A stretch of DNA of 64,000 nt from the human T2T-CHM13v2.0 reference genome, Homo sapiens: assembly GCF_009914755.1 (NCBI RefSeq), contig NC_060929.1, one strand, 5' to 3'. This document shows positions 23,593-25,805 of this stretch, in pieces; positions within the stretch are counted from its first letter, which is position 1; each line of letters begins with the position of its first letter. The notes beneath the pieces are model-generated. The model was not told the DNA's origin and did not search any database. It was given only the letters and a program-made list of their open reading frames with translations. The translations under genes were made by a program, and so were the position numbers.

Positions 23593-24479
23593 CTTTGTGG
23601 TTTTATCTACTTTTGGTCTTTGATGATGGTGATGTACAGATGGGTTTTTGGTGTGGATGTCCTTTCTGTTTGTTAGTTTTCCTTCTAACAGACAGGACCC
23701 TCAGCTGCAGGTCTGTTGGAATATCCTGCCGTGTGAGGTGTCAGTGTGCCCCTGCTGGGGGGTGCCTCTCAGTTAGGCTGCTCGGGGGTCAGGGGTCAGG
23801 GACCCACTTGAAGAGGCAGTCTGCCTGTTCTCAGATCTCCAGCCGTGTGCTGGGAGAACCACTGCTCTCTTCAAAGCTGTCAGACAGGGACATTTAAGTC
23901 TGCAGAGGTTACTGCTGTCTTTTTGTTTGTCTGTGCCCTGCCCCCAGAGGTGGAGCCTACAGAGGCAGGCAGGCCTCCTTGAGCTGTGGTGGGCTCCACC
24001 CAGTTCGAGCTTCCTGGCTGCTTTGTTTACCTAAGCAAACCTGGGCAATGGCGGGCGCCCCTCCCCCAGCCTCGCTGCCGCCTTGCAGTTTGATCACAGA
24101 CTGCTGTGCTAGAAATCAGCGAGATTCCGTGGGCGTAGGACCCTCAGAACCAGGTGTGGGATATAGTCTCGTGGTGCACCGTTTTTTAAGCCGGTCTGAA
24201 AAGCGCAATATTCGGGTGGGAGTGACCCGATTTTCCAGGTGCGTCCGTCACCCCTTTCTTTGACTCAGAAAGGGAACTCCCTGACCCCTTGCGCTTCCCA
24301 GGTGAGGCAATGCCTCTCCCTGCTTCGGCTCGCGCACCGTGCGCGCACCCACTGGCCTGCGCCCACTGTCTGGCACTCCCTAGTGAGATGAACCCGGTAC
24401 CTCAGATGGAAATGCAGAAATCACCCGTCTTCTGCGTCGGTCACGCTGGGAGCTGTAGACCGGAGCTGTTCCTATTCGG
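23593..24479 (-). promoter_or_regulatory. L1 5'UTR: internal sense promoter (fires -) and antisense promoter (fires +); CpG-rich
   Basis: Reverse complement of the L1PA 5'UTR (…ccggagctgttcctattcgg). The extreme 5' GGGGGAGGAGCCAAGATGG with the YY1 site is absent. Promoter activities are established for the family, not shown here. Confidence 0.85.
24048..24263 (+). CDS. ORF0: L1 ORF0 (primate antisense ORF), intact 71 aa
   Basis: ATG in a strong context (gcaATGG): MAGAPPPASLPPCSLITDCCARNQRDSVGVGPSEPGVGYSLVVHRFLSRSEKRNIRVGVTRFSRCVRHPFL*. Donors CAG|GTGTGG (24153/4) and CAG|GTGCGT (24238/9). Confidence 0.85.
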   Translation: MAGAPPPASLPPCSLITDCCARNQRDSVGVGPSEPGVGYSLVVHRFLSRSEKRNIRVGVTRFSRCVRHPFL

Positions 24480-24494
24480 ACTTTCTTCACAGAA

Positions 24495-25805
24495 TTGGAA
24501 AAAACTACTTTAAAGTTCATATGGAACCAAAAAAGAGCCCTCATCGCCAAGTCAATCCTAAGCCAAAAGAACAAAGCTGGAGGCATCACACTACCTGACT
24601 TCAAACTTTACTACAAGGCTACAGTAACCAAAACAGCATGGTATTGGTACCAAAACAGAGATATAGATCAATGGAACAGAACAGAGCCCTCAGAAATAAC
24701 ACCGCATACCTACAACTGTCTGATCTTTGACAAACCTGAGAAAAACAAGAAATGGGGAAAGGATTCCCTATTTAATAAATGGTGCTGGGAAAACTGGCTA
24801 GCCATATGTAGAAAGCTGAAACTGGATCCCTTCCTTACACCTTATACAAAAATCAATTCAAGATGGATTAAAGATTTAAACGTTAGACCTAAAACCATAA
24901 AAACCCTAGAAGAAAACCTAGGCATTACCATTCAGGACATAGGCATGGGCAAGGACTTCATGTCCAAAACACCAAAAGCAATGGCAACAAAAGACAAAAT
25001 TGACAAATGGGATCTAATTAAACTAAAGAGCTTCTGCACAGCAAAAGAAACTACCATCAGAGTGAACAGGCAACCTACAAAATGGGAGAAAATTTTCGCA
25101 ACCTACTCATCTGACAAAGGGCTAATATCCAGAATCTACAATGAACTCAACCAAATTTACAAGAAAAAAACAAACAACCCCATCAAAAAGTGGGCGAAGG
25201 ACATGAACAGACACTTCTCAAAAGAAGACATTTATGCAGCCAAAAGACACATGAAAAAATGCTCATCATCACTGGCCATCAGAGAAATGCAAATCAAAAC
25301 CACAATGAGATACCATCTCACACCAGTTAGAATGGCAATCATTAAAAAGTCAGGAAACAACAGGTGCTGGAGAGGATGTGGAGAAATAGGAACACTTTTA
25401 CATTGTTGGTGGGACTGTAAACTAGTTCAACCATTGTGGAAGTCAGTGTGGCGATTCCTCAGGGATCTAGAACTAGAAATACCATTTGACCCAGCCATCC
25501 CATTACTGGGTATATACCCAAATGACTATAAATCATGCTGCTATAAAGACACATGCACACGTATGTTTATTGCGGCATTATTCACAATAGCAAAGACTTG
25601 GAACCAACCCAAATGTCCAACAATGATAGACTGGATTAAGAAAATGTGGCACATATACACCATGGAATACTATGCAGCCATAAAAAATGATGAGTTCATG
25701 TCCTTTGTAGGGACATGGATGAAATTGGAAATCATCATTCTCAGGAAACTATCGCAAGAACAAAAAACCAAACACCGCATATTCTCACTCATAGGTGGGA
25801 ATTGA
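24495..25805 (+). CDS. ORF2: L1 ORF2p C-terminal half (436 codons open, no proximal ATG)
   Basis: [15 protein letters not shown]...CWRGC..HCWWDC...FSLIGGN*. Continues where the inverted N-half stops. In-frame TAG upstream at 24456. Confidence 0.8.

What the first reader, a model, noticed from the sequence alone, without database searches (positions are those of the whole stretch)
24048..25805. Inversion junction creates an in-frame ORF0-ORF2(C-terminal) splice fusion driven by the L1 antisense promoter
Seen: the 5' inversion places an intact ORF0 (ATG 24048) on the + strand just upstream of the open C-terminal half of ORF2, followed by the element's own AATAAA and poly(A). ORF0 donor 1 (CCAG|GTGTGG, exon ends 24153) is phase 1: 35 codons plus G. 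Just past the junction is a pyrimidine tract with CAG (ctttcttcacAG|aa, AG at 24491-24492). G+AA gives Glu, in frame with TTG GAA AAA..., so a 339-nt intron would yield a 35+1+436 = 472-aa protein. Donor 2 (24238) is out of frame, and unspliced read-through is blocked by an in-frame TAG at 24456. Established: the L1 antisense promoter and ORF0 donors form fusion transcripts with downstream exons. Inference: here the downstream exon is L1's own ORF2 C-terminal domain (CCHC-containing), so an otherwise ATG-less half-gene gains a start codon.
Basis: partly seen in the sequence, partly recalled or inferred. Interest (0 to 1): 0.8.

Follow-up and report, generated by a model that had tools for sequence, protein, structure and literature searches.

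The report
Inverted L1 with latent ORF0-ORF2 fusion
This is one young L1 retrotransposon that was inserted with its front part flipped, so its antisense promoter and small ORF0 gene now point at the tail of its own ORF2 gene; a fusion protein is possible on paper, but nothing here shows that it is made.

Summary
Window 19983-26059 is a single young L1 with a twin-priming 5' inversion, nested in an older L1 and flanked by a 13-bp target-site duplication.

- **Minus arm (19983-24479):** L1.3 nt 20 onward, with the 5'UTR, an open ORF1 and ORF2 residues 1-844.
- **Plus arm (24480-26059):** ORF2 residues 839-1275, the 3'UTR, AATAAA and an A-rich tail.
- **ORF0 (24048-24263):** intact, 71 aa.
- **The fusion on paper:** joining the donor at 24153 to the AG at 24492 gives a 472-aa frame ending at the ORF2 stop.

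This is coding potential, not a shown product. The frame match is a 1-in-3 event. By a crude measure the acceptor is ordinary:
- 12 of 17 pyrimidines upstream.
- No branch-point consensus within 15-60 nt.
- Three AGs between the nearest weak branch-point motif and the site.
- 105 sites of equal or better crude quality in the next 40 kb.

Rival donors and acceptors exist. Four poly(A) hexamers lie inside the would-be coding region. Published ORF0 fusions are rare (57 of about 3200 loci). No RNA or peptide data could be consulted.

Verdict: an ordinary twin-primed L1 with an untested latent fusion. Interest is low to moderate.

The parts
19970..19982 (.). Left target-site duplication (13 bp)
   Evidence: Identical 13-mer at 26060-26072, read. 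Its last 4 nt also pair with L1 sequence (I1), which is microhomology at the 5' junction.
19983..24479 (-). Inverted 5' arm of the L1: 5'UTR from L1.3 nt 20, ORF1, and ORF2 codons 1-844
   Evidence: PDB matches to human ORF2p 1-844 and ORF1p. Pfam Exo_endo_phos, RVT_1 and Transposase_22. The 5' end is anchored by the L1.3 nt 7-99 primer printed in PMC5860796.
22579..23592 (-). ORF1, open, 338 codons (stop at 22576-22578)
19909..22512 (-). Truncated ORF2 frame: ORF2p 1-844, then a short tail read from the target-site duplication and the older L1, up to a stop at 19909-19911
23985..23990 (+). TGTGGT, a RUNX-type motif in the antisense promoter region. It maps to about L1 nt 514-509.
   Evidence: Read. 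A passage of PMC3192792 places the RUNX3 site needed for antisense promoter activity at 526-508 on the opposite strand.
24048..24263 (+). ORF0, 71 codons plus stop
   Evidence: Length agrees with '71 amino acids' in PMC4908685.
24151..24159 (+). ORF0 donor 1, CAG|GTGTGG, exon ends at 24153, phase 1
   Evidence: 7 of 9 consensus positions
24236..24244 (+). ORF0 donor 2, CAG|GTGCGT, exon ends at 24238, phase 2
   Evidence: 8 of 9
24299..24307 (+). Third donor-like site, CAG|GTGAGG, 38 nt past the ORF0 stop. The same AG is also acceptor-like.
   Evidence: 8 of 9; 13 of 17 pyrimidines upstream
24479..24480 (.). Inversion junction
   Evidence: It is the only one of 40 scored genome matches that spans it.
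24480..24507 (+). 28 nt of L1 present in both arms (other copy at 19983-20010, 1 mismatch)
   Evidence: I1
24473..24492 (+). Proposed acceptor: short pyrimidine tract and AG at 24491-24492
24492..25805 (+). ORF2 codons 839-1275 plus stop. This covers the end of the thumb, the whole wrist (863-1061) and the C-terminal domain with the CCHC motif.
   Evidence: 8uw3_A 839-1275, E 2.8e-298. Domain limits from PMC10830420.
25806..26059 (+). 3'UTR, AATAAA at 26008-26013, degenerate A-rich tail
26060..26072 (.). Right target-site duplication

Best explanation
One young L1 RNA, of the L1PA2/L1HS 5'UTR type, was inserted by target-primed reverse transcription with twin priming.

- One cDNA was primed on the poly(A) tail and reached ORF2 codon 839.
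- A second cDNA was primed from the other target-site end on ORF2 codon 844-845 and ran almost to the RNA 5' end (nt 20).
- The two cDNAs were joined head to head.

As a by-product, the antisense promoter and ORF0 now lie in tandem with ORF2 codons 839-1275 and the element's own poly(A) signal. ORF0 donor 1 and the native ORF2 AG at 24492 happen to be in the same phase, so a 472-aa fusion exists on paper.

The most likely real output, if the promoter fires at all, is the ordinary one. That is unspliced or otherwise spliced antisense-promoter RNA encoding the 71-aa ORF0 product, often ended early in the A-rich ORF2 sense sequence. The in-frame isoform would be absent or minor.

Shown: the structure and the frames. 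Inferred: promoter activity, splice choice and translation.
For: **Structure**
- The arms match human ORF2p 1-844 and 839-1275 and ORF1p.
- 13-bp target-site duplication.
- 33-nt inverted repeat made of a 28-nt duplication, 4 nt of microhomology at the 5' junction and 1 nt at the inversion junction.
- This fits twin priming as described in PMC2912911. There 5'-inverted copies are 639 of 2068 species-specific L1 insertions, and about 70% have 2-5 bp microhomology.

**Latent, not special**
- AG 24492 has 12 of 17 pyrimidines and a longest run of 8.
- No YTNAY motif lies 15-60 nt upstream. The only TNAY is 49 nt upstream, with AGs at 24451, 24457 and 24464 in between.
- 105 sites pass the same crude filter in 24160-64000, and 26 stronger ones (14 of 17 or more) lie downstream.
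- Acceptor-like AGs at 24268, 24301 and 24383 score 14, 13 and 12.
- The donor at 24301 (8 of 9) would leave ORF0 whole.
- AATAAA at 24774 and ATTAAA at 24867, 25017 and 25341 lie inside the would-be coding region.
- The L1 sense strand is reported to cause premature polyadenylation (passage of PMC3192792).
- ORF0 is usually encoded wholly within the L1. Only 57 of about 3200 loci showed exon fusions (passage of PMC4908685).
Against:
- AG 24492 is the first acceptor-like site inside the plus arm. Only 2 sites pass the filter in 24480-26060, so little competes nearby within the L1.
- ORF0, its start context and a RUNX-type motif are intact.
- The hub's table lists RefSeq 'enhancer' features over 23725-24793. 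I could not check them, but they may reflect regulatory activity of this 5'UTR.
- My splice-site measures are crude consensus counts, not a trained model.
- Antisense-promoter transcripts often do splice to cryptic acceptors (988 putative transcripts in PMC4908685).
Confidence: 0.8

Rival explanations
1. In cells where this 5'UTR is demethylated, the antisense promoter yields an mRNA spliced 24153 to 24493 and polyadenylated at the L1's own signal. It is translated into a 472-aa protein made of ORF0 residues 1-35, Glu, and ORF2p 840-1275.
For: - In-frame join.
- Intact ORF0 with a good start context and no upstream ATG.
- Open 437-codon ORF2 part, 423 of 437 residues identical to human ORF2p. 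I counted 14 differences by eye on the alignment.
- Own AATAAA.
- ORF0 donors are described as forming fusions (passages).
Against: - Modest acceptor without a branch-point consensus, and with upstream AGs.
- Rival donors and acceptors.
- Four poly(A) hexamers in the coding part.
- Rarity of ORF0 fusions.
- The term 'ORF0-ORF2' occurs in none of the 7 papers returned by the one search of the held library that included it.
- No expression data were seen.
Confidence: 0.1
2. The antisense promoter is active and its RNA is spliced, but through other pairs. These could be donor 2 or the 24301 donor, or acceptors at 24268, 24301 or 24383, or far downstream. The result is a non-coding RNA or short out-of-frame peptides, as at other intergenic L1 antisense-promoter loci.
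For: - Donors at 24238 and 24301 match the consensus better (8 of 9) than donor 1 (7 of 9).
- 26 acceptor-like sites with 14 of 17 or more pyrimidines lie in 26061-64000, the first at 27393.
- An L1PA2 antisense promoter drives the lncRNA LINC01876 (passages of PMC10619931).
- The other joins modelled give 37-131 aa products or plain ORF0.
Against: No plus-strand gene or lncRNA is annotated downstream in the hub's table. The same lack of RNA data applies. Two of these other pairs (donor 2 to 25282 or 25330) also fall in the ORF2 frame.
Confidence: 0.25
3. The locus is transcriptionally silent on the plus strand in essentially all normal cell types, being a methylated old L1 in a gene desert. 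None of the modelled products then exists.
For: - No gene is annotated in the 64-kb window (hub's table).
- The 5'UTR arm keeps only 34 CpG in 887 nt, observed/expected 0.48, as expected after long germline methylation.
- DNA methylation is reported to limit antisense promoter activity in normal tissue (passage of PMC4908685).
Against: RefSeq 'enhancer' features over 23725-24793 in the hub's table. L1PA2-8 antisense promoters are reported active, including in embryonic stem cells (passages of PMC4908685).
Confidence: 0.35

Closest known systems
Twin-priming 5'-inverted L1 insertions (Ostertag and Kazazian 2001, not held; described in PMC2912911 and PMC10760644, passages read)
   Same: An inverted 5' segment joined to a direct 3' segment. 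A target-site duplication around the whole element, poly(A) on the direct arm, microhomology at the 5' junction, and a small duplication at the inversion junction.
   Different: The inverted arm runs almost to the 5' end of the RNA (nt 20). It therefore keeps both promoters, ORF0 and ORF1. I did not count how common that is.
ORF0 fusion transcripts and proteins (Denli et al. 2015; paper not held, known here only through passages of papers that cite it)
   Same: The same ORF0, the same kind of internal donors, and a downstream acceptor in frame.
   Different: The downstream exon would be the element's own ORF2 tail rather than a host gene exon. There is no RNA or peptide evidence here.
L1 antisense-promoter chimeric transcripts (Speek 2001, not held; Criscione 2016, PMC4908685, passages read)
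   Same: [quoted passage not shown]
   Different: That catalogue required overlap with an annotated gene exon, and none exists here.
Splice and poly(A) sites within L1 (Belancio 2006 and 2008, not held; Larson 2018, PMC5860796, passages read)
   Same: L1 sense RNA carries usable splice acceptors and premature poly(A) signals.
   Different: I found no statement that the AG at ORF2 codon 839 is a used acceptor. The papers that map ORF2 sites could not be read.

Membership tests
Twin-priming 5'-inverted L1 insertion | Two L1 segments in opposite orientation that together make up one contiguous L1 | tested here: met
   The minus arm holds the 5'UTR, ORF1 and ORF2 1-844. The plus arm holds ORF2 839-1275 and the 3'UTR.
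Twin-priming 5'-inverted L1 insertion | Target-site duplication flanking the whole insertion, and a poly(A) tail on the direct arm | tested here: met
   13-bp duplication at 19970-19982 and 26060-26072. AATAAA at 26008 followed by an A-rich tail.
Twin-priming 5'-inverted L1 insertion | Microhomology between the target end and L1 at the 5' junction | tested here: met
   The inverted repeat extends 4 nt into the duplication (19979-19982) (I1). 2-5 bp is typical (PMC2912911).
Twin-priming 5'-inverted L1 insertion | Small duplication or deletion of L1 sequence at the inversion junction | tested here: met
   28 nt are present in both arms, with 1 mismatch. ORF2 residues 839-844 are encoded twice.
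Twin-priming 5'-inverted L1 insertion | Endonuclease-type target (bottom strand TTTT/AA) | tested here: met
   The top strand reads AT|AAAA at 19968-19973, which is 5 of 6 positions of the consensus quoted in PMC2912911.
L1 ORF0 | Antisense ORF of 70-71 codons in the 5'UTR of L1PA1-8, with its start near nt 451 | tested here: met
   71 codons. The start maps within 1 nt of the A451 position given in PMC10619931, using the nt 7-99 primer as anchor. The 5'UTR arm of 887 nt plus 19 missing nt lacks the 129-bp segment of L1PA3 and older.
L1 ORF0 | Two splice donors inside the ORF | tested here: inconclusive
   Two GT sites inside ORF0 match at least 7 of 9 consensus positions (24153, 24238). A weaker GT at 24215 matches 6 of 9. 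I could not confirm that the first two are the published SD1 and SD2, because Denli 2015 is not held.
L1 ORF0 | Transcribed from the antisense promoter and translated | not testable with these tools
   No expression data. Only a RUNX-type motif at 23985-23990 is seen.
ORF0-exon fusion protein | Spliced RNA joining an ORF0 donor to a downstream acceptor | not testable with these tools
ORF0-exon fusion protein | The reading frame continues across the join | tested here: met
   472 aa for 24153 to 24493, in silico only.

The most novel reading that the evidence does not exclude
In cells with demethylated L1 promoters (early embryo, germ line, tumours), this locus makes a protein in which the first 35 residues of ORF0 lead into a free-standing ORF2p wrist plus C-terminal (CCHC) module. 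Such a nucleic-acid-binding fragment could act on L1 ribonucleoprotein particles in trans or serve as a locus-specific tumour antigen. More broadly, 5'-inverted L1s that keep their 5'UTR would be a small, unrecognised source of self-fusion ORFs.
Probability: 0.07. Interest if true: 0.5.

Novelty: new member of a known kind. Interest (0 to 1): 0.22.

Why it matters
If the fusion were real, twin-priming inversions could turn an L1's own antisense promoter onto its own coding sequence. That would yield a free wrist plus C-terminal fragment of ORF2p with a new N-terminus. It would add a class to the known ORF0 fusions and might matter for L1 regulation or tumour antigens.

As it stands, the locus is a clean example of twin priming in which the inverted arm nearly reached the RNA 5' end. 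The fusion is a testable idea and not a finding. The genomic junction is unique among scored matches. The ORF0 exon also carries locus-specific variants. Existing long-read data could therefore settle the question cheaply.

Tried and rejected
- **Primary papers not held.** Denli 2015, Belancio 2006 and 2008, Ostertag and Kazazian 2001, Speek 2001 and Matlik 2006. The published donor positions, mapped ORF2 acceptors and any locus tables or supplements in them were not seen and may bear on the claim.
- **Pfam:** no family for ORF0 or for ORF2 839-1275.
- **Second copy of the junction on contig 4:** suggested by a 1-96 match and rejected. The locus is an ordinary 5'-truncated L1 end followed by unrelated flank.
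- **Trained splice-site scores:** MaxEntScan and SpliceAI were not available. I used consensus matches and pyrimidine counts only.
- **Genome-wide count of 5'-inverted L1s that keep ORF0:** considered and not done. The own-genome search scores only 40 of more than 800 candidates per query, and no fixed pattern describes arbitrary junctions.
- **Literature:** the search that included 'ORF0-ORF2' returned 7 papers, none with that term. The searches combining twin priming with ORF0 or antisense promoter returned 12 and 5 papers. Going by their listings and the passages I read, none describes such a fusion.

Full report
**What is there**

Reading 19800-26400 and listing frames shows one L1 in two arms.

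The plus arm starts at 24480.
- Its frame 24492-25802 matches human ORF2p residues 839-1275 over its whole length (8uw3_A, E 2.8e-298). I counted 14 differences in 437 residues by eye on the printed alignment.
- It is followed by the stop at 25803-25805, a 3'UTR, AATAAA at 26008 and a degenerate A-rich tail to 26059.

The minus arm spans 19983-24479.
- It encodes ORF2p 1-844. I counted 22 differences in 844 residues by eye. Pfam finds Exo_endo_phos and RVT_1.
- It has an open 338-codon ORF1.
- It has 887 nt of 5'UTR.

The L1.3 nt 7-99 primer printed in PMC5860796 anchors window 24479 to L1.3 nt 20, so only the first 19 nt are missing. The 5'UTR length (887 + 19) means the 129-bp segment of L1PA3 and older families is absent (passage of PMC5860796). 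The element is therefore of the L1PA2/L1HS type. From recalled 3'UTR diagnostics, which no call tested, I would call it L1PA2-like.

**How it arose**

- A 13-bp target-site duplication (19970-19982 and 26060-26072) flanks the whole element.
- The interrupted host sequence is an older L1 in the orientation of the plus arm. Its two sides are 72-73% similar to adjacent parts of the young ORF2 (D2 and D3).
- The two arms share a 33-nt inverted repeat, 19979-20011 and 24479-24511, at 97% (I1). It consists of 28 nt of L1 present in both arms, 4 nt that belong to the duplication (microhomology at the 5' junction) and 1 nt at the inversion junction.
- The target reads AT|AAAA on the top strand.

All this is the signature of twin priming as described in PMC2912911 (passages). 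In that study 5'-inverted copies are 639 of 2068 human- and chimpanzee-specific L1 insertions. About 70% of them have 2-5 bp of microhomology at the 5' junction. PMC10760644 describes the same model (passages).

The unusual point is only that the inverted cDNA ran nearly to the RNA 5' end. The arm therefore keeps the promoters, ORF0 and ORF1.

Every coordinate is right.
- ORF0 runs 24048-24263, 71 codons. It has a purine at -3 and G at +4, and there is no ATG in 23800-24047.
- Inside ORF0, two GT sites match at least 7 of 9 donor consensus positions: 24153 (7 of 9, phase 1) and 24238 (8 of 9, phase 2). A weaker GT at 24215 matches 6 of 9.
- The AG at 24491-24492 precedes the last two bases of the Glu839 codon.
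- A script joined exon ends in silico. Joining 24153 to 24493 gives 472 aa ending at the ORF2 C-terminus, while 24238 to 24493 gives 98 aa out of frame.
- TAG at 24456 closes the ORF2 frame upstream.
- The fragment would comprise the last residues of the thumb, the whole wrist (863-1061) and the C-terminal domain with its CCHC motif. Domain limits are from PMC10830420 (passages).
- One correction: the half-gene is not ATG-less. It has 14 in-frame ATGs, the first at 24945.

**Is it more than chance?**

No. Given an inversion that keeps ORF0, a phase match has odds of 1 in 3. The long open frame is simply inherited from a young L1.

I filtered AGs for a pyrimidine at -3, no AG in the 13 nt before it, and at least 12 of 17 pyrimidines in -20 to -4. 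With this crude filter, 105 AGs pass in 24160-64000, about one per 380 nt. Of these, 3 lie in 24160-24479, 2 in 24480-26060 and 100 downstream.

**Quality of the proposed splice**

- AG 24492 has 12 of 17 pyrimidines and a longest run of 8.
- No YTNAY motif lies 15-60 nt upstream.
- The only TNAY is at 24443, 49 nt away, with AGs at 24451, 24457 and 24464 in between.
- Under the looser filter (at least 11 of 17, pyrimidine at -3), 8 of 112 AGs in 24160-26010 pass. These include 24268 (14), 24301 (13) and 24383 (12) upstream of the junction.
- A third donor-like site at 24301 (CAG|GTGAGG, 8 of 9) lies past the ORF0 stop and would leave ORF0 whole.
- Of the 20 donor-acceptor pairs modelled, 4 fall in the ORF2 frame: 24153 to 24492 (472 aa), 24153 to 25710 (66 aa), and 24238 to 25282 and 25330 (237 and 221 aa).
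- Inside the would-be coding region lie AATAAA at 24774 and ATTAAA at 24867, 25017 and 25341. The L1 sense strand is reported to cause premature polyadenylation (passage of PMC3192792).

These are consensus counts, not trained scores. The consensus forms are recalled.

**What is known**

- Passages of PMC4859970, PMC10760644 and PMC13517631 state that ORF0 has two splice donors and can form fusions with downstream exons, citing Denli 2015.
- PMC4908685 states that ORF0 is usually encoded wholly within the L1. It gives 57 of about 3200 loci with a fusion to a gene exon, and places L1HS and L1PA2-8 antisense starts within the first 600 bp of the 5'UTR.
- A RUNX-type TGTGGT at 23985-23990 maps to about nt 514-509. 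That lies inside the 526-508 site named in PMC3192792.
- PMC10619931 describes an L1PA2 antisense promoter driving a lncRNA.
- Denli 2015 itself, the Belancio papers that map ORF2 splice sites, Ostertag and Kazazian 2001, Speek 2001 and Matlik 2006 are not held.
- In the held library, the search that included 'ORF0-ORF2' returned 7 papers, none with that term.

**Uniqueness**

- A 161-nt query across the junction gave 823 first-look candidates, of which 40 were scored. Only the locus itself spans the junction.
- One match on contig 4 that seemed to run 16 nt past the junction was fetched. It is an ordinary 5'-truncated L1 end with unrelated flank.
- The ORF0 exon-1 region (131 nt) gave 835 candidates, of which 40 were scored. 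It is 100% identical only to itself, and the next best matches are 98%.
- Reads can therefore be assigned to this locus.

**Verdict**

The structure is a well-formed twin-primed L1 and the in-frame geometry is real. The fusion is an untested possibility with several sequence features against efficient use. I put about 0.1 on the fusion mRNA being a real isoform that is translated. I put about 0.8 on the plain reading: a by-product of twin priming, with ordinary ORF0 or non-coding output, or silence.

The hub's RefSeq 'enhancer' features over 23725-24793 could not be checked here.

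Noticed in passing
window 19909-23592, minus strand: The inverted arm keeps an open 338-codon ORF1 and an ORF2 frame of 867 codons. 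That frame is ORF2p 1-844, with endonuclease and reverse-transcriptase Pfam domains, plus a short foreign tail. It lies behind a 5'UTR lacking nt 1-19, which removes most of the reported YY1 site at nt 13-21. ORF2 is thus split between the two strands, and residues 839-844 are encoded twice.
   Followed up: partly
window 19882-19982 and 26073-26199: The young L1 sits inside an older L1 that has the same orientation as the plus arm. The two sides of the older copy are 72-73% similar to adjacent parts of the young ORF2 (24931-25027 and 25055-25161). Plus-strand read-through past the poly(A) site would therefore continue in old L1 sense sequence.
   Followed up: partly
window 19996 versus 24494: The single mismatch between the two copies of the 28-nt duplication changes the doubly encoded residue 839: Asp in the minus arm, Glu in the plus arm. 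It lies 2 nt after the proposed acceptor AG.
   Followed up: no
window 24238 with 25282 or 25330: Donor 2 joined to either of two weaker acceptor-like AGs (11 of 17 pyrimidines) also falls in the ORF2 frame, giving 237 and 221 aa. Donor 1 to 24492 is therefore not the only in-frame pair.
   Followed up: partly
window 23593-24479: The 5'UTR arm keeps 34 CpG in 887 nt (observed/expected 0.48, G+C 56%). The hub's table places two adjoining RefSeq 'enhancer' features (23725-24259, 24260-24793) over the antisense promoter, ORF0 and the junction. Their experimental basis was not visible to me.
   Followed up: no
L006 (G000:C4:140817600-140821800), locus 2076-4201: An ordinary L1 5' end on contig 4 is 97.9% identical to the inverted arm over 2130 nt. 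It gives a rough measure of how close this copy's relatives are.
   Followed up: partly
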